Shown: positions 1-18,214, counted from the first letter of the stretch. The stretch: DNA of 26,805 bases from Pseudomonadota bacterium (GCA_034439715.1 JAWXAY010000086.1:1-26805), one strand, 5' to 3'. Numbers and translations: made by a program. Notes: generated by a model not told the origin, from the letters alone.

Positions 1-503
1 CCCTGCGACAGTAGGGCGCCCTGTTGCAAATTCCTAAGAGTTTTAACAAGAAAAAAATAACGCGAGCTTTGTTCGACACCGAGAGAATTCAAAGCTTGAA
101 CTACAATAGGGAGGGTATTACTGCCCTCAGTGGGAGTCACCTGAATCTGCAATAATTGTCCCAACGCAGCCTTTCCTAAAAAAATAGTAATTCCATGCAA
201 GGACTTTAACAAAAATGCAGCACGAGATTTTTTCTCCTCGGGATTACCACTATTCACCCAAGGGTTGGCGGCAATACTGTCTAAGAACATGAGACTCACT
301 GAGGCTGAACTACCGCCCGATTGAATTTGTGGAAGACCCATTTTTTCAACGAGATTGGCAAGCGCGCCCCAATGTGCCGGCTGCGCTTCACCGTTTCCCC
401 GGAGCGCCAAACAATAGGGCTCGGCATTGAGCTTTAAAGAAATCACAAATAATGTCACCAGAGTGACAATAAACCCTCTCGTAATCCTAATAGATTGACC
501 CAT
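1..503 (-). CDS. Secreted patatin-like lipid hydrolase (partial; runs off the left edge; not in the ORF track)
   Basis: Hand translation from ATG at 503 (GGAGGA SD at 511-516) is open to the window edge: MGQSIRITRGFIVTLVTLFVISLKLNA-EPYCLALRGNGEAQPAHWGALANLVEKMGLPQIQSGGSSAS... It has a signal peptide, a patatin-like oxyanion loop (LALRGNG..AHWGAL) and a GGSSA nucleophile elbow. Confidence 0.6.
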   Translation of the reverse strand, partial: MGQSIRITRGFIVTLVTLFVISLKLNAEPYCLALRGNGEAQPAHWGALANLVEKMGLPQIQSGGSSASVSLMFLDSIAANPWVNSGNPEEKKSRAAFLLKSLHGITIFLGKAALGQLLQIQVTPTEGSNTLPIVVQALNSLGVEQSSRYFFLVKTLRNLQQGALLSQ

Positions 504-587: not shown

Positions 588-2516
588 CTAAAGTTGAACA
601 TCCCTGCCAACGATGGGTGGAAATCCATTATAGGCGGGCAGAGCCTTCCAGTCCAATTTTGTGTGGGACACTTGGATGCCCAAGGCCTTTAGGTACTTTC
701 CGAGAGCAATCAGTGGAAATGTCGGCGCATAGAGTGAATACTGCATGGTTGTTAATCCCGGATGTCCTGTTGCTGTCACTGATTGATCGACCCAACGACC
801 ACGTTTTTTGAAATTCTCTGTGAGCCATTTAGCCGCTCGCTGGGCGACTTCCGTGTTGGCCAAGCCACATTCTACCAAAGTAATTAACACCCACGCGGTG
901 TGAGAGGGCGTGCTTTCTCCGCATCCCGCAAGATGAGCTTTAACATACGAAGCTGGCGTTTCACCAAAGCCACCATCAGAATTTTGTTTCGAGGTCATCC
1001 AACGAATAGCCCTTTGAATATACGGCGATCTCGCATCTTCGCCTGAAGCCAATAGCCCTTGCACGGCAACGGACGTGCCGAATAAATAGTTCTGAGCCCA
1101 ACGGCCCTTCCAGCCACCAAAATCTGCTTGATTCTTTTTAAGGTACAAAATCGCCTTTTGTGCAATGGGACTGTTATATTTATTATAGCCGCCAAAAGCC
1201 ATGGCCTCTAAGACATGTCCGGCACAATCGTTTGATGAATAATCGAATAGCGATTCTCGGTCTTTATAATTTCGCAAGAAAAAATTAAGCAAAAAATTAT
1301 TGCGATTGTTTTGATTAAATGCACCCCAGCCACCATCATCATTTTGTCTTTCCATAAGCCATCGTAATGAACGAAGAGCATTTTCACGGTAACGGCCACC
1401 GACTTTAAACCACAAGTCAGTTGCTGAGCAGGTATCATCGACATCGGGTTCGTTTATAAAACCCATGCCAAAGGGCATTCCACCGTTGGGCGCTTGTTCG
1501 TTCACTATAAAATCTAAGGAATCACTGAGCTCACTCGCCGTAAAACCAGTTTCTAAGAGTGCTGTTGAAGTTAATATTGTGTCCCAGTTCGTGCCATCAC
1601 AAGTAATGCCGGTGTAGGCTCCATTACTGGGATTTAAGTAAAGAGTTTTTAAAAAGCTTAGGCCTAATGAAACAGCGTTTTCAATTTTTGCTTTGTGACG
1701 AGAGGAATTTTCAGAAAAATGGGACATCGCTAAGAGTGAAAACACAGTCGACGTGGTATATCCGCCCCAACAGCCCACCGGATTTTGTAAGCGTACAATT
1801 TTATTTATAAGCCAGCCATCGAAAAATTTGTTTGGCTTTTTGCTTTCATTGGGAACTGGTTGGGGGTTTGGTTTTAATTCGTCCAACGAAAACGCGGAAC
1901 CCAAGTCTTTGCTCATGCGGAGACTTTGCATGTAGGCAAAGGGCATCATGTGAGGCCGTGACCACTGAGAAAAACGTTTATAGTTCATAGGCACGAAATC
2001 CATAAATGTGATGTAGGGAGTGGCTGGCACTTGGTCCCACGATACAATTCTAAAAAGTGCTAACAAAACGATTGTAAAAATCTCGGCGTTATCAAGACCC
2101 CCTTTATTGTGGATAAAGGTGCGGGCCCTTTTCATGGGCTCAGAATGTGGAGCTACGCCCAATACTTTAAGTGTCCAATAGGTAATGATTGAAACATTGA
2201 GCTCACCTTCGATAAAATTCGCATCTTTAAGTTGGACCCAACCACCATCTGACAGTTGACGACTTAAAAGCAGTTCTTTTAAATAATCTTTGTCAATTCC
2301 AGAGTCTTTAATATTCATCCACTCGCACGCCAAAAAATACTGGCAAACGAAAAATGGGCCAAGGTATGCTGGAAACTTCCAGAAGCCGCCTTCACGTCGA
2401 AGCTTGAGGAGATTCTCTTGCCCTAAATGAATTGTCTGAAGAATGGTATTTTGCGCTTCATCAGAAAGCACTTTATCTTTTTGAACTATTGTTTTGTTGT
2501 CCGTTTCTAAATTCAT
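588..2516 (-). CDS. Class II triterpene (squalene) cyclase, squalene-tetrahymanol-cyclase-like
   Basis: 642 aa. QW repeats (RQLSDGGW, RQNDDGGW, QADFGGW, KQNSDGGFGE), catalytic PDVDDT (DxDD), WDT, RWAQNY, STPSHTAW and a C-terminal Y-x-x-Y...FPLIAL. Cyclase family is firm; the STC subfamily call is less so. Confidence 0.93.
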   Translation of the reverse strand: MNLETDNKTIVQKDKVLSDEAQNTILQTIHLGQENLLKLRREGGFWKFPAYLGPFFVCQYFLACEWMNIKDSGIDKDYLKELLLSRQLSDGGWVQLKDANFIEGELNVSIITYWTLKVLGVAPHSEPMKRARTFIHNKGGLDNAEIFTIVLLALFRIVSWDQVPATPYITFMDFVPMNYKRFSQWSRPHMMPFAYMQSLRMSKDLGSAFSLDELKPNPQPVPNESKKPNKFFDGWLINKIVRLQNPVGCWGGYTTSTVFSLLAMSHFSENSSRHKAKIENAVSLGLSFLKTLYLNPSNGAYTGITCDGTNWDTILTSTALLETGFTASELSDSLDFIVNEQAPNGGMPFGMGFINEPDVDDTCSATDLWFKVGGRYRENALRSLRWLMERQNDDGGWGAFNQNNRNNFLLNFFLRNYKDRESLFDYSSNDCAGHVLEAMAFGGYNKYNSPIAQKAILYLKKNQADFGGWKGRWAQNYLFGTSVAVQGLLASGEDARSPYIQRAIRWMTSKQNSDGGFGETPASYVKAHLAGCGESTPSHTAWVLITLVECGLANTEVAQRAAKWLTENFKKRGRWVDQSVTATGHPGLTTMQYSLYAPTFPLIALGKYLKALGIQVSHTKLDWKALPAYNGFPPIVGRDVQL

Positions 2517-3838
2517 TGGGTATCTCTCTGAAATACTGGCCGGCCAAGTACTGTTGTGAGGCCTTTTCGACTAATGCCCCAAAGATCAAAAAGTTCTGCC
2601 AGGCCGGGTTTGTCTTTGTCTATTCCCGCAAATAATCGCATGACTCGATTAGGTAACTCAGGCGCTAGCTTCCAAGTGTTAGTGACGTGCCGCGTGGTCG
2701 TTTTAAACAGAGGAGCCCGAGCAAAAAACAAGTAATAGAGACCCAAATTAACTATATCGAGTCTCTCTTGAATGGCACGAGTTTTTTCGGCATAGGCCTT
2801 CTGGGAATCTTGAGTTGATTTGGCAAGCGAGGTCGAAAAATCAAACTCATCTATGAGGTAATCGACGTGCTCCATGCCAGCACTAATTCCTTGGCCGGCA
2901 TAGGGCGTGGTCGTCGCTACGGCATCGCCCGCCAGCAAAAAGTTTCCTCCAAAAGAAGGTCCGAACCACATCTGATAAGCAGGGCAACCTAAAATCGGCG
3001 CCTCTTCATCCAACTCTCCTAATTTTTCATGAGGTCTTACATCATTTATTATTTTCTTAATACTTTTTGCCCATTGATCTTTGCCTACGCCCGGTCGATC
3101 AAGCGAACTATAATAGAGCCGCTGGCCGATACCGGGGAGTTCAAATGCAAAAAGAGTTCCTTCGCCGTAACTGCGAAACACTTGATAGCAGCCTTTTACG
3201 GGAGATTTTGTTGCGATCTCGGCACCAATAATATGTTCAGGAGTGGCGCCTAATAAAATTCGGCGATTTTTTGGGGCCTCTGGTCCTTTCATCCAATTTC
3301 TGACTTGCGAAGTGCGGCCATCACAACCAATGACCCATTTGGGTCTGACAAGAGCCGTGCCCCGCTCAGGGTGCCTCAATTCAAATTCTGGGCGGATTAA
3401 AAAATCTCGCTCATTATGATTGAGTGGTACAAGATTCGCACCGAGCCAAAAATCCTCGCCGAGGGTCTCGTGCGCTTTTGCTCGTAATTCGTTGACTAAG
3501 GTGTCGTGGGTAAAAGTTTTGGCAGAATGTGAAGCGGGATATTCCATCATAATATCAGAAATAACTTCATTAGAATTTTTATCTAAGTCGCGAAACCTCA
3601 AATTATGGATTGAATCAAATGACGGCTTAGTAAAAATAGAACCGAGTCCTAATTTCTGGAGAGTGGCAACGGGTTGAGGCTGCATGTACTCGCCCTTAAA
3701 AACCCGCCTTACCTTAGCTGACCTCTCGACAAGTAGCACTTCGAGCCCTTTTTTCTTGAGGCCGATGGCAAGGGGACCGCCGATGACTCCAGCGCCCACT
3801 ACGACAACGTCAGGACACAGTATTTTGGTATAAGCCAT
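2513..3838 (-). CDS. FAD-dependent monooxygenase, squalene epoxidase-like (group A flavoprotein)
   Basis: 441 aa. GAGVIG Rossmann motif, ER...GEYMQP (squalene epoxidase has GEFLQP), CDGRTS (DG motif), LLAGDA...PYAGQG (GD motif) and C-terminal IVNLGLYYLF. ATGA overlap (2513-2516) with the cyclase start. Confidence 0.75.
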   Translation of the reverse strand: MAYTKILCPDVVVVGAGVIGGPLAIGLKKKGLEVLLVERSAKVRRVFKGEYMQPQPVATLQKLGLGSIFTKPSFDSIHNLRFRDLDKNSNEVISDIMMEYPASHSAKTFTHDTLVNELRAKAHETLGEDFWLGANLVPLNHNERDFLIRPEFELRHPERGTALVRPKWVIGCDGRTSQVRNWMKGPEAPKNRRILLGATPEHIIGAEIATKSPVKGCYQVFRSYGEGTLFAFELPGIGQRLYYSSLDRPGVGKDQWAKSIKKIINDVRPHEKLGELDEEAPILGCPAYQMWFGPSFGGNFLLAGDAVATTTPYAGQGISAGMEHVDYLIDEFDFSTSLAKSTQDSQKAYAEKTRAIQERLDIVNLGLYYLFFARAPLFKTTTRHVTNTWKLAPELPNRVMRLFAGIDKDKPGLAELFDLWGISRKGLTTVLGRPVFQRDTQ

Positions 3839-3925: not shown

Positions 3926-4702
3926 TTATAAAATTAGGCCCGTAAGGGTTTGCCATTCCCTAGGAGATAATAGATCTGAGCCAATTAGCAACACGGGGAC
4001 TTCATTAATATCATAGCGATTTTTCGGTTTATTGACTTCAGACGGTACCCAGCCCCTGGCCTTCGTTGTCTCTATCCATTGCTTTCTCAAATGCAGTGAG
4101 TTGCATATGAGAATGCACTCGTCTTTCTTTCGTTTTTTTCCTATGTGATTTTTTTCATACTCATAATGACTGACCACCCACGTGTTTCCCTGATTAACCT
4201 TTTTAATCTCTTGGGAGCCAATATTAACTGAGTATTTGTACTTCTTTTTTCCGGGTTCACGAAAGCTAAAGATCATATCTAAATTATTTTGGTTAAATTC
4301 TTCTTCAAGTTTTTCGAGTTCATAAACCTCCAGCTCTACCATTATCACTCCTGCGCCTTTAAATAGTTTTCGGCAAAATTCGCCTGCGATTAAGCCTAAA
4401 CCGTCTAAAGTTCCGATTCGCAAATGAGTGAGCATGCGATCTTCTTGCAAATGAATAATATCGAGTTCGAGTTTTCGCTCGGCGCTGGCATAAAGCTGGG
4501 CTAACTGAAAGGCGACGCTCATCCATCCTGACTTTCTTTTAGCTGTACGGTCCAAAATCACAATAGAAAGCTCATCCTCTACTTTCTTAACAATTCTCGA
4601 AAGTTGGGGCTGACTCATTCCAATGTTTTGGGCGGCAGAAGATAGGGTCGGAAAGTGAACCGCCCGACTAATCACACTAAGCTCCCAATGAATTTCTACC
4701 AT
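3926..4702 (-). CDS. LysR-family transcriptional regulator (short, divergent effector domain)
   Basis: N-terminal HTH TLSSAAQNIGMSQPQLSRIVKKVEDEL...LDRT, plus LRIGT. 258 aa; divergent from 4835..5299. Confidence 0.85.
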   Translation of the reverse strand: MVEIHWELSVISRAVHFPTLSSAAQNIGMSQPQLSRIVKKVEDELSIVILDRTAKRKSGWMSVAFQLAQLYASAERKLELDIIHLQEDRMLTHLRIGTLDGLGLIAGEFCRKLFKGAGVIMVELEVYELEKLEEEFNQNNLDMIFSFREPGKKKYKYSVNIGSQEIKKVNQGNTWVVSHYEYEKNHIGKKRKKDECILICNSLHLRKQWIETTKARGWVPSEVNKPKNRYDINEVPVLLIGSDLLSPREWQTLTGLIL

Positions 4703-4725
4703 TTCATATATGTATCAAATGAATA
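4703..4725. promoter_or_regulatory. Putative LysR binding site (T-N11-A dyads)
   Basis: TTCAT-N11-ATGAA (4703-4723) and an overlapping TAT-N7-ATA (4713-4725) directly upstream of the LysR start. The region is AT-rich, so a chance match is possible. Confidence 0.4.
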
Positions 4726-4834
4726 ATAATATATCAATTATGTATTGTATTTATACTTTAAATTCCTTTAGAAGCTATCTCATGAACGCTGGCTGAATCA
4801 GCGTCAATTAAACAAACCCCTTAAGGAGGACCCT

Positions 4835-5299
4835 ATGAAACTATTAATTACTTTATTAACCGCTCTTACTGCCTCACAAGCAATGGCCGATGGATTTACC
4901 TGTAAAACCTATGGTGATGATCTCACTATAAAAGTTTACAACAAAACTCAGCCATCTGAAGGAACACGAAATGCCGCTGTGATGGTCATTTCAGATTCTA
5001 ATATCTCTTACGGTCGCAGAACAATCGCTAAGTTTTCTGCTGAAGGCACTCTTGATAACTCAGGCGCCTCATACACTGCAGGTGTTGATCTTCGCAGAAT
5101 TGATAGTGATCGAAAAGGTGAAAACATTTTAGGCACAAAGCTTGGAAATGTTGATTCTATCAGCCTCGACGTCGATTTCAAATACAATGAGCCCGTTGCT
5201 CATGGAACAGTATTGCTTGGTCGCGTAACTATCGAAAAACGTAACGGCGATTCCCTTTCTGAGAAAATGGATTGTGTTAGATATTTAAAGTCTGAGTAA
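4835..5299 (+). CDS. Secreted hypothetical protein
   Basis: AAGGAGG SD; signal peptide MKLLITLLTALTASQAMA; two Cys near the termini of the mature chain; followed by a terminator. Confidence 0.85.
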   Translation: MKLLITLLTALTASQAMADGFTCKTYGDDLTIKVYNKTQPSEGTRNAAVMVISDSNISYGRRTIAKFSAEGTLDNSGASYTAGVDLRRIDSDRKGENILGTKLGNVDSISLDVDFKYNEPVAHGTVLLGRVTIEKRNGDSLSEKMDCVRYLKSE

Positions 5300-5325
5300 T
5301 CTCGTAAGTTTATTATAGGATAGGT

Positions 5326-5357
5326 AAAGCCAACCCCATAAGGGTTGGCTTTTTTTT
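5326..5357 (+). terminator. Rho-independent terminator
   Basis: AAAGCCAACCC-CATAA-GGGTTGGCTTT followed by a T run, 26 nt after the stop of 4835..5299. Confidence 0.9.
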
Positions 5358-5384
5358 GCGCAATTTAAAATAAAATAAATAAAA

Positions 5385-5424
5385 TTGACCATCGATATAT
5401 AAACATATATATATACGTTTATAT
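5385..5424 (+). promoter_or_regulatory. ArsR/SmtB operator overlapping a sigma70-like promoter
   Basis: TTGACC (5385-5390)-N17-TATATA (5408-5413). A 28-bp palindrome with one mismatch, ATATAAACATATATATATACGTTTATAT (5397-5424), covers the -10 element and the start codon. Confidence 0.65.
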
Positions 5425-5770
5425 GTTATCAAGCACATCTAAAGAGTATCAGGGCGTTCTTAAAAAAATCGCGAGTTTAAGAAAGTCCCCACAAGTTTTT
5501 TCTCTTTTGGCAGAGACCTTTCAGGCACTAGGTGATTACTCTCGGGTACAAATTTTGTGGGTTTTAACAAAAGGTGAACTCATGGTTGGGGATATCGCAG
5601 TCATGCTTTCTCTCAGCCAGCCAGTCGTTAGTCACCATTTACGAATGCTAAGAAATCTAAAGCTGGTACGCGCTAGACGACAAGGGCGCTCGGCCTATTA
5701 TTCATTGGATGATATTCACATCGAGCGACTACTTAATGAGGGCATTAAACATGTCGAAGAACTTATTTAG
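5423..5770 (+). CDS. ArsR/SmtB metalloregulator with alpha5-type metal site
   Basis: FQALGDYSRVQIL, SQPVVSHHLRMLR HTH and YYSLDDIHI...HVEE (D-x-H...H-x-x-E, SmtB/CzrA-like). Confidence 0.9.
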   Translation: MLSSTSKEYQGVLKKIASLRKSPQVFSLLAETFQALGDYSRVQILWVLTKGELMVGDIAVMLSLSQPVVSHHLRMLRNLKLVRARRQGRSAYYSLDDIHIERLLNEGIKHVEELI

Positions 5771-7532
5771 TTGGATACTTTTACTTTTTTTGAGTCTTGT
5801 TTTGGGGTCTCAAGCATCGGCGACTGCTAGTTCAGATAGTGAACAGGGGCGACTGATCGTACATATTCTAGACTATATCGCTAAGGATTACGGGGGAGCG
5901 GTTCAAGATAAAAAAATCTTAAATCAGTTTGAATATGATGAGCAAATAGAATTTGTGAAAGCGGCTAAAGAAAGCGTGCTGGCTCTTAAGATAGCGCCGA
6001 ATTTGAAAAAGGAAGTTCTGGATAGAGTAACGAGTCTCGCTCTCAAGATAGAAAACTTAGAGGACGAAAAAAGCGTGTCAACCCTCGCCTTTGACACCAA
6101 GGCACTGGCTGTTAAAATTTTCGCGCTACCCATCATTCCAGCAAGTGCCCCTGATCTTGCCAATGGCGCGCGTATATTTGCGGAGAAATGTGCTTCTTGC
6201 CACGGGGCAAGTGGCGATGGCAGCGGGGCAGCCGGCGCTGGGCTTATCCCCAAGCCCTCAAATTTTTTAGATGAAAATACCATGGAGTTCGCAACTCCCT
6301 TTTCGGCATTCAATAGCATCAGATTAGGAATCACTGGCACAGGAATGCAAGGCTTTAAAGATTTAAGCGATCAAAATGTATGGGACCTTTCGTACTATGT
6401 CGTATCTGTCCGATTCGCTGGAGCGGATTCCAGTTACAAATGGTTGGCGATGGCCACATGGTATTTATCTCAAGCTGAAAGTTACTATCAGTTAGGGGAT
6501 GCTCATTCAGCAAAGGCGATGGCAATTAAGGCCTATTTAGAGGGAATTGAGCCTGTAGAACCCAAAATTAAAGCAACTGATCCAAATCTTGTAGCTGAAA
6601 TTGAAGACGCCATGAACCAAGTGCGTGGCAGCATCAAAAACGCTGATAGCAAAGAACTCGTATCGAAAAAAACCTTGCTTGCCAAAGAGGTGATAGTAAA
6701 AATTCAGAAATCTTTTTCAGATCAAGAACTGACACCGGGAATGGCCTTTGCCTCTTCACTCGCAATCCTAGTGCGCGAGGGGTTTGAAGCTGTACTTATC
6801 GTTCTTGCATTATTATCCATTTTGCAAGCCGTGGGAGCTAAAAGGGCCTACATATGGGTGCATCTCGGTTGGGGTGCGGCATTAGTCTGTGGTCTTGGCC
6901 TTTGGTGGTTAACGGGGACCATTATAGATTTGGGCGGGGTGGGGCGTGAGAGTATGGAGGCCATTGCCTCTCTACTCGCAGTAGTTATTTTGCTGTACGT
7001 TGGTTTTTGGTTGCACAGTCAGACCGAAATTCATCGCTGGAAGGCCTTTATTCATAAGCGAACAAAAACCATTATGGAGCAGAAAAATCTTATCGGCATC
7101 GCACTAATTTCTTTTTTAGGTGTATTTAGAGAAGCCTTTGAAACGGTTTTATTTCTTCGCGCTCTTTGGCTTGAAGGCAACGAAAGTGCACGAGCCTCTA
7201 TAGTTGGCGGTGTAGCAACAGCTTTTGTGGTGGTGCTAGGACTCTCCTGGATTTTATTTAAGATGAGCCGAAAATTACCCATTAAAAAACTTTTTTTGGT
7301 CACCTCAAGCGTGATCGCGGTTTTGTCTGTGGCACTGGCTGGAAAATGCCTTCATGCCTTTCAAGAAACTGGCATGGTTTCGGTAACGGTTCTGCCATTT
7401 TCTTTTAGGTTCGAGATTTTGGGAATTTTTCCGACTTATGAAACAATGGCAGGACAGCTTTTGGTCGCGCTTCTGATTGTTGTCCTTTGGCTCTTGGGAA
7501 ATCGGGTTCCAGACCCAATTAAAGTAAAATAA
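5751..7532 (+). CDS. Cytochrome c / FTR1 iron-lead permease fusion (PbrT/EfeU-like)
   Basis: Start moved to ATG 5751 (signal peptide MSKNLFSWILLLFLSLVLGSQASA). HILDYIAKDYGGAV N-terminal motif, CASCH heme motif, REGFE and REAFE FTR1 motifs, multiple TM helices. Confidence 0.9.
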   Translation: MSKNLFSWILLLFLSLVLGSQASATASSDSEQGRLIVHILDYIAKDYGGAVQDKKILNQFEYDEQIEFVKAAKESVLALKIAPNLKKEVLDRVTSLALKIENLEDEKSVSTLAFDTKALAVKIFALPIIPASAPDLANGARIFAEKCASCHGASGDGSGAAGAGLIPKPSNFLDENTMEFATPFSAFNSIRLGITGTGMQGFKDLSDQNVWDLSYYVVSVRFAGADSSYKWLAMATWYLSQAESYYQLGDAHSAKAMAIKAYLEGIEPVEPKIKATDPNLVAEIEDAMNQVRGSIKNADSKELVSKKTLLAKEVIVKIQKSFSDQELTPGMAFASSLAILVREGFEAVLIVLALLSILQAVGAKRAYIWVHLGWGAALVCGLGLWWLTGTIIDLGGVGRESMEAIASLLAVVILLYVGFWLHSQTEIHRWKAFIHKRTKTIMEQKNLIGIALISFLGVFREAFETVLFLRALWLEGNESARASIVGGVATAFVVVLGLSWILFKMSRKLPIKKLFLVTSSVIAVLSVALAGKCLHAFQETGMVSVTVLPFSFRFEILGIFPTYETMAGQLLVALLIVVLWLLGNRVPDPIKVK

Positions 7533-16955: not shown

Positions 16956-18214
16956 TTATACTATTTTAAGTGAATCAATCATGGCCTTTATGCCATGAGT
17001 TTGAAATAATTTTTTGGCCTTCTGCCCGGGATTTTCCTCGGCCTTTAATCGCTCAAAGAGTGGTTTCAATAATTCCTCTTCTTTAAAACCACGAGCCGCA
17101 AGTCCTTTGTAGGCGAGAGATAGAATTTCAAGCAAAAACCCTGGCACTGGCCGTTTGGCGCCAAGTCCAAAACGTACGGATTCCTTATGATAATCGTTTA
17201 GCAGTGGCCAAGCCTGATTTCCAAATTGTTGGTTGAGATAGGACTGTATTTCTTTTTCGCCTTCAATGAGGCCCAACGAAAGCGCCGCAACGCTCATGTG
17301 TTCAGACCAAGGCTGCTGACAGGCTGGGCGAATTTCGACTGTGGAGTGGGCCGAGCGCGCACGGGCGCTATTCCATAGATAATGGTCATGCATCAAAAAA
17401 GATTCAAGGTCTGGACCATTTTCTTTGATGACTTCTGTAAAGGGAACGTTGACGGCATAATAGGATTTATTTTTTAGTAAAAGACATGTTTTTGAGAGAG
17501 TCTTTCGATAAAGTCATTTATGTCATCGTAGGGGCGCTCGATCATACCGTGGCGCTGCTCTTCCGGAAATATATCTTTTTTTAAGCCCTCTCGGTGGCAA
17601 ATAAAGTCTTGGTTGTCCCCACACACCGAGGAGTTACCGCAGAGAGCGATTATCACAGGAGCCATTAGGATTCCGAAGTTAGTAAACTTAATAATCTCAT
17701 CTTTAGTAATGTCTATTTGCGCTTGGTCACTTGAAGTCACACAAAACCACAGCCAACTAGGTCCCATAATATCGAAAAGTAATTTATAGCGTTGCTTGGG
17801 TGACATTAGTTGAGGAGTGGCTCGTGTAATGGGTTGTATGCCAAATCCCAAGACGTGATATTTTTTATCTCTACAAATTTTCAATAGGGGCTGCATAGCT
17901 TTCTCGTGCATGTCTTTCAATTCAAAAAGTGTATGGGCGGGCCCGGTAATGACTTCAATTGTGCCGAGTCCCACTTCTGACGAATAGCTAGCAGCTTTAC
18001 TCTCAAGGCCTACAAGCATTTTCTCGTTAGGGAGATTATCATAAAGAGCCTTAAAATTTCCGGTGGCTCTCAATGGTTCAAACAATTCAAAAATATTCGC
18101 GGCGGTACCATCGTCTTTGACAACGGTGTATTCGGCCTCACGCCCTATCATGCGTGGACCTCTTAAGTGTTCACGAAACCTTGCCTGAAATTGATTTCCC
18201 AAGGTGCCACTCAT
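16956..18214 (-). pseudogene. Glutamate--cysteine ligase family (GCS2/GshA-like) gamma-glutamyl ligase, split by a 1-nt frameshift (real or sequencing error)
   Basis: The 5' ORF has IGREAE, SSEVGLGTIE, PKQRY, TSSDQAQID and ALCGNS. The 3' ORF has HDHYLWNSAR...TVEIRPACQQP. Adding one base between 17477 and 17513 joins them into a single 419-aa frame. Confidence 0.75.

What the first reader, a model, noticed from the sequence alone, without database searches (positions are those of the whole stretch)
588..3838. Coupled squalene-epoxidase-like monooxygenase + STC-like DxDD cyclase: candidate new bacterial triterpenoid pathway
Seen: an FAD monooxygenase whose stop overlaps the start (ATGA, 2513-2516) of a triterpene cyclase with a DVDD motif. 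Established: bacterial squalene epoxidases pair with oxidosqualene cyclases (DCTAE motif) to make sterols or arborinols. DxDD cyclases (SHC, STC) use squalene directly without O2, but they can accept oxidosqualene in vitro and give 3-hydroxy products. Inference: this operon makes an O2-dependent, non-sterol 3-oxygenated triterpenoid (e.g. a gammacerane-diol or 3-hydroxyhopanoid), or the flavoenzyme tailors the cyclic product. This pairing sits between the hopanoid and sterol pathways and matters for sterol evolution and biomarker interpretation.
Basis: partly seen in the sequence, partly recalled or inferred. Interest (0 to 1): 0.92.

Follow-up and report, generated by a model that had tools for sequence, protein, structure and literature searches.

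The report
Epoxidase-like flavoenzyme coupled to tetrahymanol-type cyclase
A rare flavin monooxygenase, which in related bacteria sits beside cyclases of the oxidosqualene type, is here fused into one operon with a tetrahymanol-type squalene cyclase, so this bacterium probably makes an oxygen-dependent, non-sterol 3-hydroxy triterpenoid that nobody has yet looked for.

Summary
On the minus strand, a 441-aa FAD monooxygenase (MO, 2513-3838) ends in an ATGA overlap with a 642-aa class II triterpene cyclase (cycA, 588-2516). cycA carries DVDD.

cycA belongs to a well-supported clade that also holds the eukaryotic squalene-tetrahymanol cyclases (STC), and it shares their diagnostic His.

By sequence the MO is not a canonical squalene epoxidase: it has no Pfam SE hit, and its fold ties with other group A monooxygenases. 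It belongs to a rare, sharply bounded family found almost only in Bdellovibrionota. Its context is telling:
- In 9 of 12 genome loci a cyclase lies within 6 kb.
- In 7 of these the cyclase has the single-Asp VTDCTA motif of oxidosqualene cyclases, sometimes with a squalene synthase, a GT21 glycosyltransferase and an RND/LolA-like transporter.
- Five such genomes hold no canonical SE.

So the family is best read as a squalene epoxidase. In the window's own family (4 genomes) every cyclase motif read was DxDD, and none was the DCTA type. The MO is still conserved beside a LysR-cyclase unit.

Best reading (about 0.5): squalene is epoxidised to oxidosqualene, which is cyclised to a 3-oxygenated gammacerane-type lipid. 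Partial precedents exist, so this is a new variant of a known kind. No biochemistry has been done.

The parts
2513..3838 (-). FAD-dependent monooxygenase (MO, P0001, 441 aa). Member of a rare Bdellovibrionota-centred family and the putative squalene 2,3-epoxidase.
   Evidence: FAD_binding_3 scores 66.9 bits and PF08491 gives no hit. The family is monophyletic (SH-aLRT 100). The AF2 model has pLDDT 90.6.
3779..3796 (-). Codons for the GAGVIG dinucleotide-binding motif (MO residues 15-20).
   Evidence: Read. G15 and G20 are invariant and G17 nearly invariant in the family alignment A1.
2513..2516 (-). ATGA overlap: the MO's TGA stop and the cyclase's ATG start share 4 nt.
   Evidence: The same arrangement occurs in L045. 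An alternative GTG start at cyclase codon 16 is not excluded.
588..2516 (-). Class II triterpene cyclase cycA (P0002, 642 aa) of the squalene-tetrahymanol cyclase clade.
   Evidence: TIGR04277 scores 363.7 bits (cut-off 500) and is the best model. cycA sits in a clade of 32 sequences with eukaryotic STCs (SH-aLRT 100).
1434..1445 (-). Codons for DVDD (cycA residues 358-361), the protonating DxDD motif.
   Evidence: GAT GTC GAT GAT read. It aligns with the DVDD of SHC 1gsz and with other DxDD cyclases.
762..764 (-). Codon for His585 in ATGHPG, at the position of Phe in the GTGFPG of SHC. This is the STC-type signature.
   Evidence: The legend of additional file 1 of PMC3317845 states that STCs have His where most SHC and OSC have Phe.
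3926..4702 (-). LysR-type regulator (258 aa), 88 nt upstream of the MO. It is conserved directly upstream of the cyclase in the three sister genomes.
   Evidence: HTH_1 scores 27.8 bits. It is 54%, 50% and 47% identical to the genes just upstream of the cyclase in L012, L011 and L143.
3..503 (-). 5' part of a 567-aa gene of no known family, 85 nt downstream of cycA, with a hydrophobic N-terminus. It may belong to the same operon.
   Evidence: The full gene is L045:4232-5935, and neither Pfam nor NCBIfam gives a hit. It is followed by a 354-aa SAM methyltransferase-like gene that overlaps it by 19 nt.
4835..7532 (+). Conserved neighbour block: a 154-aa unknown gene, an ArsR regulator and an FTR1 iron permease-cytochrome c fusion. 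It is context only and not part of the pathway.
   Evidence: In L011 and L012 the matching block (152 aa, ArsR, FTR1/cytochrome c) lies between the MO and LysR-cyclase. The window's own ArsR and FTR1 labels rest on size, order and that match; these ORFs were not scanned here.

Best explanation
The two genes form an oxygen-dependent triterpenoid module. A divergent squalene synthase encoded elsewhere in the genome supplies squalene. The flavoenzyme uses FAD, a reductant and O2 to epoxidise a terminal double bond of squalene, giving 2,3-oxidosqualene. The co-translated STC-clade cyclase protonates the epoxide with its DxDD acid, folds the chain all-chair into five six-membered rings and quenches the final cation with water. 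The product would be a gammacerane-3,21-diol-type or similar 3-hydroxy pentacyclic lipid for the envelope. Shown here: the gene structure, the family memberships, the conserved linkage of the MO family with cyclases, and the absence of a DCTA-type motif wherever a cyclase motif could be read in this lineage (one cyclase fragment unread). Inferred: the MO's substrate (from context and flavin chemistry), the cyclase's use of oxidosqualene (from the known promiscuity of SHC and STC), and the product. Historically, the epoxidase seems to have been partnered first with a single-Asp (VTDCTA) SHC-like cyclase. In this family that cyclase was not found, and the epoxidase is kept next to the LysR-STC-type cyclase unit.
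For: (1) The MO family is linked to triterpenoid genes. Of 12 genome loci with a full-length family member (L011-L022), 9 hold a cyclase within 6 kb. L013 and L014 are cut by contig ends, and L021 has none. Neighbours include a squalene synthase and GT21 (L016, L015, L046) and an MMPL/RND protein with a sterol-sensing-like domain plus a LolA-like protein (L048).
(2) In 7 of those 9 loci the cyclase has PVTDCTA in place of PDxDDT. This is the single-Asp arrangement of oxidosqualene cyclases. Five of those genomes hold no canonical SE: their only PF08491 hits score 28 bits or less and, in four of them, coincide with the MO itself (one further 17.6-bit hit in G064 lies elsewhere). True SE scores 74-345 bits. 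The MO is therefore the only flavoprotein candidate for making the epoxide there.
(3) Flavin C4a-hydroperoxide chemistry (established knowledge) epoxidises alkenes and hydroxylates activated aromatics, not saturated polycycles. Squalene is the available alkene.
(4) The best PDB sequence hit is human squalene epoxidase (6c6n, E 5e-9). SQLE also gives the top Foldseek hit and the longest structural alignment (400-402 residues). 24 of 31 family members give weak SE hits.
(5) In the window's family, all 4 genomes keep an intact MO at 50-54% identity together with a LysR-STC-type cyclase unit. Every cyclase motif read in these genomes is DxDD; the motif of the cut cycC-like fragment in G001 (L128) was not recovered. 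No P-x-x-DCTA motif occurs in any frame of the own genome.
(6) The own genome has a squalene synthase-like gene 38% identical over its full length to the one in the L016 cluster.
(7) SHC-clade DxDD cyclases that accept oxidosqualene, some of them exclusively, have been shown by expression (PMC12324236, section 7 and Table 1).
Against: The MO itself has no PF08491 hit, and every NCBIfam score is far below its cut-off. VIA-align ranks p-hydroxybenzoate hydroxylase (Z 37.0) level with SQLE (Z 35.3). The tree does not join the family to true SE (support 44). The SE-proper C-terminal extension is missing. The GE-x-x-QP loop shared with SE also occurs in non-SE neighbours.
In the phylum sample, 6 of 8 other genomes with a full-length STC-clade cyclase have no MO, so such cyclases normally work without it, presumably on squalene. 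G279 has the closest cycA relative (55% identity) unlinked to its MO, which sits beside a DCTA cyclase instead.
The ATGA coupling is seen only in this organism. In L011 and L012 three genes separate the MO from LysR-cyclase. Two family loci with long flanks (L021, L048) show no cyclase within 6-7 kb. The own genome lacks clear orthologues of the GT21 and the 471-aa partner. No expression or lipid data exist.
Confidence: 0.5

Rival explanations
1. The MO is a squalene epoxidase, but cycA's physiological substrate is plain squalene, giving tetrahymanol. The two enzymes then share a precursor and an operon without forming a linear pathway. Oxidosqualene is used by another of the three cyclases, or the cell makes a mixture of tetrahymanol and 3-hydroxy products depending on oxygen.
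For: STC-clade cyclases occur without the MO in 6 of 8 other genomes of the phylum sample. G279 keeps its cycA-like cyclase unlinked to the MO. The own genome has two further DxDD cyclases, cycB and cycC. cycA keeps the complete DxDD needed for squalene.
Against: The 4-nt overlap puts the MO and cycA on one message in fixed stoichiometry. SHC and STC-type enzymes accept oxidosqualene (PMC12324236), so any epoxide made would be cyclised by cycA anyway.
Confidence: 0.2
2. The MO works in the same pathway but after cyclisation. It would epoxidise or hydroxylate a double bond left in the cyclic product (for example a gammacerene- or hopene-type olefin), or make a second epoxide, rather than initiating the pathway.
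For: The linkage with cyclases is conserved. The sequence is not that of a canonical SE. An SDR and a 3-beta-HSD/epimerase-like gene sit beside the MO or cyclase in L018 and L021, which suggests further tailoring.
Against: The VTDCTA cyclases beside the MO would then lack any source of epoxide substrate, because no canonical SE is found in five of those genomes. A water-quenched gammacerane product has no alkene for a flavin monooxygenase to attack (established chemistry).
Confidence: 0.15
3. The MO has nothing to do with triterpenoids. It would be a quinone or aromatic hydroxylase of the UbiH/PHBH kind, and its position next to the cyclase is incidental.
For: Generic FAD_binding_3 and UbiH-like hits. 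PHBH gives the highest VIA Z score. Source names for relatives read '2-polyprenyl-6-methoxyphenol hydroxylase-like'.
Against: The family lies beside cyclases in three separate lineages and beside a squalene synthase in L016 and L046. All 7 carriers among 401 genomes have a cyclase. The family forms a distinct clade, with scores dropping sharply outside it.
Confidence: 0.07
4. The MO is a geranylgeranyl-reductase-like flavoenzyme that saturates double bonds of squalene or a related polyprenyl chain.
For: TIGR02032 (GG-red-SF) matches residues 10-323 at 55.7 bits. Relatives score 62-65 bits.
Against: All scores are far below the cut-off of 158.8. The loop after the first beta-alpha-beta unit reads KGEYMQP, as in SQLE (GEFLQP), rather than the Cys-containing loop of the reductases (recalled, not tested). 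A reductase would not explain the DCTA-type partner cyclases.
Confidence: 0.05

Closest known systems
Bacterial squalene monooxygenase (SQMO) + oxidosqualene cyclase (OSC) gene pairs of sterol-producing bacteria (PMC7306690, Fig. 5 legend and text passages seen)
   Same: A flavin monooxygenase gene sits beside a class II triterpene cyclase gene. The step needs oxygen, and a squalene synthase is in the genome.
   Different: Here the cyclase has DxDD and belongs to the STC clade, not the OSC clade (TIGR03463 scores 145.5 bits against a cut-off of 851). The monooxygenase is not a PF08491 SE protein.
Eukaryotic squalene-tetrahymanol cyclase (STC; Paratrimastix, Stygiella, Barthelona sequences P0064-P0066; PMC3317845)
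   Same: 32-33% identity over more than 90% of the length. Same well-supported clade. DxDD, and His in GTGHPG.
   Different: Eukaryotic STC works on squalene without oxygen and is not paired with an epoxidase. The window's cyclase scores below the TIGR04277 cut-off (363.7 against 500) and is bacterial.
SHC-clade cyclases with DxDD that were active only on oxidosqualene and made hopanols (PMC12324236 / PMC12414744; section 7 and part of Table 1 read)
   Same: A cyclase that is SHC-type by descent and keeps the DxDD motif uses an epoxidised substrate. This is a functional precedent for the proposed step.
   Different: Those enzymes lie in the SHC crown, not the STC clade. They came from metagenomes, and the passages read report no partner epoxidase. 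Whether they relate to the clades seen here was not tested.
[quoted passage not shown] 5 legend; supplement passages)
   Same: An SQMO-type gene lies next to a non-OSC, SHC-related cyclase.
   Different: Those SHC-like cyclases are described as not conserving the catalytic residues, whereas cycA keeps DxDD. Whether that SQMO group is the same family as P0001 could not be tested because no named sequences were at hand. One family member (L021) comes from a Myxococcota MAG.
Human squalene epoxidase SQLE (PDB 6c6n)
   Same: Best PDB sequence hit (E 5e-9 over residues 9-137). Top Foldseek hit (TM 0.77) and longest structural alignment (400-402 residues, to residue 433-435). Shares the GE-x-x-QP loop.
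   Different: Only 18% identity. Z is tied with PHBH-type hydroxylases. The Tyr that aligns in SQLE is Leu80 here. That this Tyr is the functionally important Tyr195 is recalled, not checked.

Membership tests
Squalene epoxidase / SQMO (Pfam SE, PF08491) | Match to the SE domain model above its gathering score | tested here: not met
   P0001 gives no PF08491 hit at E<=0.1. A search of the whole own genome finds only a 10.9-bit hit elsewhere. 24 of 31 family members give weak hits (best E 1.6e-8), against 74-345 bits for true SE.
Squalene epoxidase / SQMO (Pfam SE, PF08491) | Group A flavoprotein monooxygenase core: GxGxxG, DG (GCDGxxS) and GD (GDA...P...G) motifs | tested here: met
   GAGVIG at 15-20, GCDGRTS at 171-177 and GDAVATTTPYAGQG at 304-317. 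These are invariant or nearly invariant in A1 and A2. The motifs are shared by the whole superfamily, so they do not discriminate.
Squalene epoxidase / SQMO (Pfam SE, PF08491) | Branches with characterised SE in a phylogeny | tested here: inconclusive
   Quick LG+G4 tree of 67 rows. The family is monophyletic (100), but its link to the SE-positive clade is unresolved (44).
Squalene epoxidase / SQMO (Pfam SE, PF08491) | Gene sits beside a cyclase that needs an epoxide (single-Asp DCTA-type motif) | tested here: inconclusive
   Met for 7 relatives (L015-L020, L022) but not for the window's own gene, whose partner has DVDD.
Squalene epoxidase / SQMO (Pfam SE, PF08491) | Converts squalene to 2,3-oxidosqualene | not testable with these tools
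   Needs expression and GC-MS.
Squalene-tetrahymanol cyclase (STC; NCBIfam TIGR04277) | Score above the curated cut-off of the model | tested here: not met
   363.7 bits against a cut-off of 500. It is nonetheless the best-scoring model, ahead of SHC at 295.7. L011 and L012 cyclases score 453.8 and 433.4.
Squalene-tetrahymanol cyclase (STC; NCBIfam TIGR04277) | Same clade as experimentally linked eukaryotic STCs | tested here: met
   A clade of 32 rows (SH-aLRT 100, stem 1.35) holds cycA, cycB, other bacterial sequences and the three eukaryotic STC rows (quick search, midpoint root, no OSC outgroup).
Squalene-tetrahymanol cyclase (STC; NCBIfam TIGR04277) | His at the position where most SHC and OSC have Phe (the F of GTGFPG in A. 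acidocaldarius SHC) | tested here: met
   cycA has ATGHPG. His is also present in L011, L012, P0039, P0043, P0052, P0061 and P0064-P0066. The four SHC rows and the fungal row have Phe, and cycB has Ile. The criterion comes from the legend in PMC3317845.
Squalene-tetrahymanol cyclase (STC; NCBIfam TIGR04277) | Produces tetrahymanol from squalene | not testable with these tools
   Needs expression.
Squalene-hopene cyclase (NCBIfam TIGR01507) | Score above cut-off; DxDD motif | tested here: not met
   295.7 bits against a cut-off of 431.1. DxDD is present. The tree places cycA outside the SHC group.
Oxidosqualene cyclase (NCBIfam TIGR03463; VxDCTAE) | Score above cut-off; single catalytic Asp in a DCTA(E) motif | tested here: not met
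   145.5 bits against a cut-off of 851. The motif is DVDDTC. No P-x-x-DCTA motif occurs anywhere in the own genome.

The most novel reading that the evidence does not exclude
A lineage of Bdellovibrionota has re-wired sterol-type chemistry onto a tetrahymanol-type enzyme. A non-canonical squalene epoxidase, originally partnered with an SHC-derived cyclase that independently carries the OSC-like VTDCTA acid, now feeds a DxDD cyclase of the STC clade and gives an O2-dependent gammacerane-3,21-diol-type lipid. The same bacterial STC clade, rich in predatory bacteria, would be the long-sought source of the eukaryotic tetrahymanol synthase. Gammacerane-type biomarkers could then come from aerobic bacteria, and epoxide use by triterpene cyclases would have been gained or swapped several times.
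Probability: 0.35. Interest if true: 0.85.

Novelty: new variant of a known kind. Interest (0 to 1): 0.72.

Why it matters
Triterpenoid cyclases and squalene epoxidation are used to date oxygen, eukaryotes and bacterial groups in the rock record.

A bacterial operon that joins an epoxidase to a DxDD, tetrahymanol-type cyclase would show that substrate choice (alkene or epoxide) is not fixed by cyclase lineage. It would add an aerobic bacterial source of gammacerane-type skeletons. It also offers a testable intermediate between the hopanoid/tetrahymanol pathway and the sterol pathway.

Two side results also bear on the origin of sterol-type chemistry and on the unknown bacterial donor of eukaryotic STC that PMC3317845 asked for:
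- a non-canonical epoxidase family paired with SHC-like cyclases that carry VTDCTA;
- eukaryotic STCs falling in a mainly bacterial clade.

Tried and rejected
- Sequence and fold alone could not name the MO. Pfam and NCBIfam give only generic or sub-threshold hits. Foldseek puts SQLE first, but VIA-align ties it with PHBH. The ESM Atlas lists generic FAD monooxygenases, with SE-bearing clusters among them.
- The profile search of 1.84 billion representatives shows a sharply bounded family. Its nearest outsiders are a mix of generic FAD_binding_3 proteins and true SE, and the tree leaves the link to SE unresolved.
- The metagenome scan added only five true family loci. Two are the same organism, and L046 and L047 are short.
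- L021 and L048 have long flanks but no cyclase.
- The two unknown ORFs and the MFS gene beside cycB have no counterparts in the related loci.
- The own genome has no clear orthologue of the GT21 or the 471-aa partner of the L016 cluster.
- The SQS_PSY hit on contig C5 is a carotenoid crtB in a crtY-GGPPS-crtI-crtB cluster, not a squalene synthase.
- The promoter and terminator scan gave nothing above the shuffles.
- No RNA holder was listed by the look-up of sequencing runs.
- The search of earlier findings returned nothing for this genome.
- Complex prediction was not run, because no physical binding is claimed.
These are P0003 (83% identity), P0004 (73%), and P0028 and P0042, whose longest contigs have the same length of 146,243.
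- Literature searches found no paper in the held library that links tetrahymanol or STC with Bdellovibrio-type bacteria. PMC7306690 mentions Bdellovibrio only for Sqs.


Full report
**Observation**

The window is one whole contig (C86) of a 3.26-Mb, 95.7%-complete genome. On the minus strand, ORF 2513..3838 (441 aa, P0001, 'MO') is followed by ORF 588..2516 (642 aa, P0002, 'cycA'). Bases 2513-2516 read TCAT, which is ATGA on the coding strand, so stop and start overlap.
- The MO has GAGVIG at residues 15-20 and hits Pfam FAD_binding_3 (66.9 bits).
- cycA hits SQHop_cyclase_N and SQHop_cyclase_C (154.4 and 232.8 bits).
- DVDD lies at cycA residues 358-361 (window 1434-1445) and aligns with the DVDD of the solved A. 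acidocaldarius squalene-hopene cyclase.
- Two metagenome contigs (L044, L045) carry LysR-MO-cycA at 100% protein identity with the same overlap.
- Caveat: a GTG at cycA codon 16 is a possible alternative start. It would leave a gap of about 41 nt instead of an overlap.

**The cyclase**

NCBIfam ranks TIGR04277 (tetrahymanol synthase, the eukaryote-type STC) first at 363.7 bits (cut-off 500). SHC follows at 295.7 (cut-off 431.1) and OSC at 145.5 (cut-off 851).

In the 5.8-billion-protein search, the nearest relatives are unnamed or MAG proteins labelled Bacteriovoracia, Bdellovibrio, Pseudobdellovibrionaceae and Phycisphaerae (35-54% identity). Next come eukaryotic STCs of Barthelona, Paratrimastix and Stygiella (32-33%, 324-336 bits). 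Only after these come ordinary SHCs (252 bits or less).

A quick IQ-TREE (62 rows, LG+C20, midpoint root, no OSC outgroup) gives a clade of 32 rows with SH-aLRT 100 and a stem of 1.35. The clade holds cycA, the genome's second cyclase cycB, the bacterial relatives and the three eukaryotic STCs. The order inside it is unresolved.

cycA has His in ATGHPG where SHC has the Phe of GTGFPG. PMC3317845 (legend of additional file 1) names this His as the feature that sets STCs apart from most SHC and OSC. So cycA works like an STC and belongs to its clade, though it falls below the curated model cut-off.

**The flavoenzyme by itself**

P0001 gives no PF08491 (SE) hit, and every NCBIfam match is far below its cut-off.
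- The best PDB sequence hit is human squalene epoxidase, but only over residues 9-137 (E 5e-9).
- An AlphaFold model built on 31 family sequences is confident (pLDDT 90.6).
- Foldseek ranks SQLE first (TM 0.77). VIA-align gives PHBH Z 37.0 (375 residues) and SQLE Z 35.3 (402 residues, reaching residue 435), which is a tie.
- The family is rare and sharply bounded. There are 31 clusters at 39% identity or more in the word-indexed search. A profile search of 1.84 billion representatives gives 42 hits at E<=1e-30, and the score then falls from 174 bits or more to 150 and below.
- The nearest outsiders are a mix of generic FAD_binding_3 proteins and true SE (74-345 bits on PF08491).
- In a tree the family is monophyletic (100), but its tie to true SE is unresolved (44).

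By sequence, then, it is a distinct family of group A flavoprotein monooxygenases near SE, not a member of SE.

**The flavoenzyme in context**

This is the decisive part. The scan of one genome per species found 12 loci with a full-length family member (L011-L022). By record title, ten are Bdellovibrionota, one (L019) is titled Pseudomonadota and one (L021) 'Deltaproteobacteria', mapped by NCBI's ranks to Myxococcota.
- A cyclase-family gene lies within 6 kb in 9 of the 12. L013 and L014 are cut by contig ends, and L021 has none.
- In 7 of them (L015-L020, L022) the cyclase reads PVTDCTA where SHC and STC read PDxDDT. That is the single-Asp arrangement of oxidosqualene cyclases.
- These seven cyclases nevertheless score best on the SHC model (up to 424 bits, against 266 on the OSC model) and on the SHC structure (299 bits, against 159 for lanosterol synthase).
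- L016 reads squalene synthase - GT21 glycosyltransferase - cyclase - unknown - MO. L015 and L046 also have GT21, and L046 a squalene synthase. L048 has an MMPL/RND protein with a sterol-sensing-like domain and a LolA-like protein next to the MO.
- Five genomes with the VTDCTA cyclase hold no canonical SE. Their only PF08491 hits score 28 bits or less; in four genomes they lie on the MO itself, and one further 17.6-bit hit in G064 lies elsewhere.

A single-Asp cyclase is expected to need an epoxide (established for OSC; PMC12324236). The MO is therefore the only flavoprotein candidate to make it. Flavin hydroperoxide chemistry also suits an alkene such as squalene and not a saturated polycycle (established knowledge).

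**The window's own lineage**

Among 61 relatives, the MO is found only in the window's own family: 3 of 3 other genomes, against 0 of 57 genomes from 12 other families of the order. In a sample of 401 genomes of the phylum it occurs in 7, from three lineages, and all 7 have a cyclase.

The four genomes of the family keep an intact MO at 50-54% identity and a LysR-STC-type cyclase unit. The cyclases found in them are STC-type (DVDD or DIDD) or a divergent cycC-type (DLDD). The motif of the cut cycC-like fragment in G001 (L128) was not recovered. The own genome has no P-x-x-DCTA motif in any frame.

In L011 and L012 the MO is 3.6-3.7 kb from the cyclase, separated by an FTR1/cytochrome c - ArsR - 152-aa block. 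In the window that same block lies on the other side of LysR, at 4835-7532. So the neighbourhood is conserved, but the tight coupling is specific to this organism.

In the MO tree, the family's MOs form a derived clade (100) nested among MOs whose partner is a VTDCTA cyclase (supports 84-96). This suggests a switch of partner. G279, the genome of L016, has both an MO beside a VTDCTA cyclase and, unlinked, the closest relative of cycA (55% identity).

A squalene synthase-like gene on contig C93 is 38% identical over its full length to the one in the L016 cluster.

**Reading**

The best-supported mechanism is epoxidation of squalene by the MO, followed by cyclisation of oxidosqualene by the STC-type cyclase to a 3-oxygenated gammacerane-type lipid.
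- That SHC and STC enzymes accept oxidosqualene is documented. Some DxDD cyclases of the SHC clade accepted only oxidosqualene when expressed (PMC12324236, section 7 and Table 1).
- That Tetrahymena cyclase turns oxidosqualene into gammacerane-3,21-diols is recalled from older literature and was not checked here.

Against this reading:
- The MO is not a canonical SE.
- 6 of 8 other genomes with a full-length STC-clade cyclase lack the MO, so such cyclases normally act on squalene.
- No expression or lipid data exist.

I give the linear pathway 0.5, a shared-precursor or mixed-product version 0.2, post-cyclisation tailoring 0.15, and unrelated or reductase functions about 0.1 together.

**Comparison with what is known**

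- PMC7306690 describes bacterial SQMO-OSC pairs. Its Fig. 5 legend notes SQMO genes of Plesiocystis and Enhygromyxa contiguous to 'SHC-like' cyclases that do not keep the catalytic residues.
- PMC12324236 reports oxidosqualene-only cyclases in the SHC crown.
- PMC3317845 states that the bacterial donors of STC were unknown.
- None of the eight literature searches found a paper in the held library that links STC or tetrahymanol to Bdellovibrio-type bacteria, or that describes an epoxidase coupled to an STC-clade cyclase. Subscription journals are not covered.

The finding is therefore a new variant of a known kind: real, conserved in its lineage, mechanistically plausible and untested.

**Verdict**

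Interest 0.72.

Noticed in passing
L015:2754-4673, L016:2484-4382, L017:3977-5905, L018:3887-5983, L019:1100-3124, L020 about 2558-3600, L022:3888-6224: A distinct clade of cyclases (SH-aLRT 100) scores best as SHC (up to 424 bits on TIGR01507, 299 bits on PDB 1gsz) but carries the OSC-type PVTDCTA motif instead of DxDD. Each lies beside a member of the MO family, in genomes without a canonical squalene epoxidase. They may be an independent, SHC-derived line of oxidosqualene cyclases.
   Followed up: partly
proteins P0064-P0066 versus P0039-P0063, cycA and cycB (tree): The eukaryotic squalene-tetrahymanol cyclases fall inside a mainly bacterial clade (Bdellovibrionota, Phycisphaerae). The clade shares the STC-type His. 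It is a candidate for the bacterial donor lineage that PMC3317845 said was unknown. Only a quick tree was built, with three eukaryotic rows and no OSC outgroup.
   Followed up: partly
G000:C43:2041-3960 (-) with neighbours 785-2044, 3964-5115 and 5112-6299: A second STC-clade cyclase (cycB, 639 aa, 34.5% identical to cycA) has DCDD, Ile instead of the STC His, and a signal-peptide-like N-terminus. It sits in a same-strand run with two ORFs of no known family (383 and 395 aa) and an MFS transporter.
   Followed up: partly
G000:C94:77778-79769 (+): A third, very divergent cyclase (cycC, 663 aa, DLDD, end branch 5.5 in the tree) has counterparts at 35-41% identity in two sister genomes. Its function is unknown.
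   Followed up: partly
L045:4232-8863 (continuation beyond window position 1): Downstream of cycA on the same strand lie a 567-aa protein of no known family, a 354-aa HemK/PrmC-like SAM methyltransferase that overlaps it by 19 nt, a DUF2608 protein and a LysR substrate-domain protein. Whether the methyltransferase acts on the triterpenoid is open.
   Followed up: partly
cycA versus L011/L012/L143 cyclases and G279:C2:26713-28566: cycA is closer (55% identity) to the unlinked cyclase of a genome from another family of the phylum than to the LysR-linked cyclases of its own family (44-45%). The MO and LysR, by contrast, are 47-54% identical within the family. The tree leaves the order unresolved, so in-situ replacement of the cyclase is possible.
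   Followed up: no
window 4835-7532 and L011:7349-10084, L012:1919-4392: A block of a 152-154-aa unknown gene, an ArsR regulator and an FTR1 iron permease fused to a cytochrome c domain is conserved next to the MO/LysR/cyclase genes. It has a different position and orientation in the window than in the sister genomes, so a local rearrangement brought the MO next to the cyclase.
   Followed up: partly
G000:C5:1384-5924: A carotenoid cluster crtY - polyprenyl diphosphate synthase - crtI - crtB. The genome therefore makes cyclic carotenoids as well as triterpenoids.
   Followed up: yes
window 16956-17396 and 17474-18214 (-): Two adjacent same-strand ORFs (146 and 246 aa), 77 nt apart, look by eye like two pieces of one gene. 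This was seen in the translations and not tested.
   Followed up: no
L021:7322-8266 and L018:3028-3945: A 3-beta-HSD/epimerase-like gene lies directly after the MO in L021, and an SDR lies beside the cyclase in L018. These hint at oxidation at C-3 of a 3-hydroxy product in some carriers.
   Followed up: no
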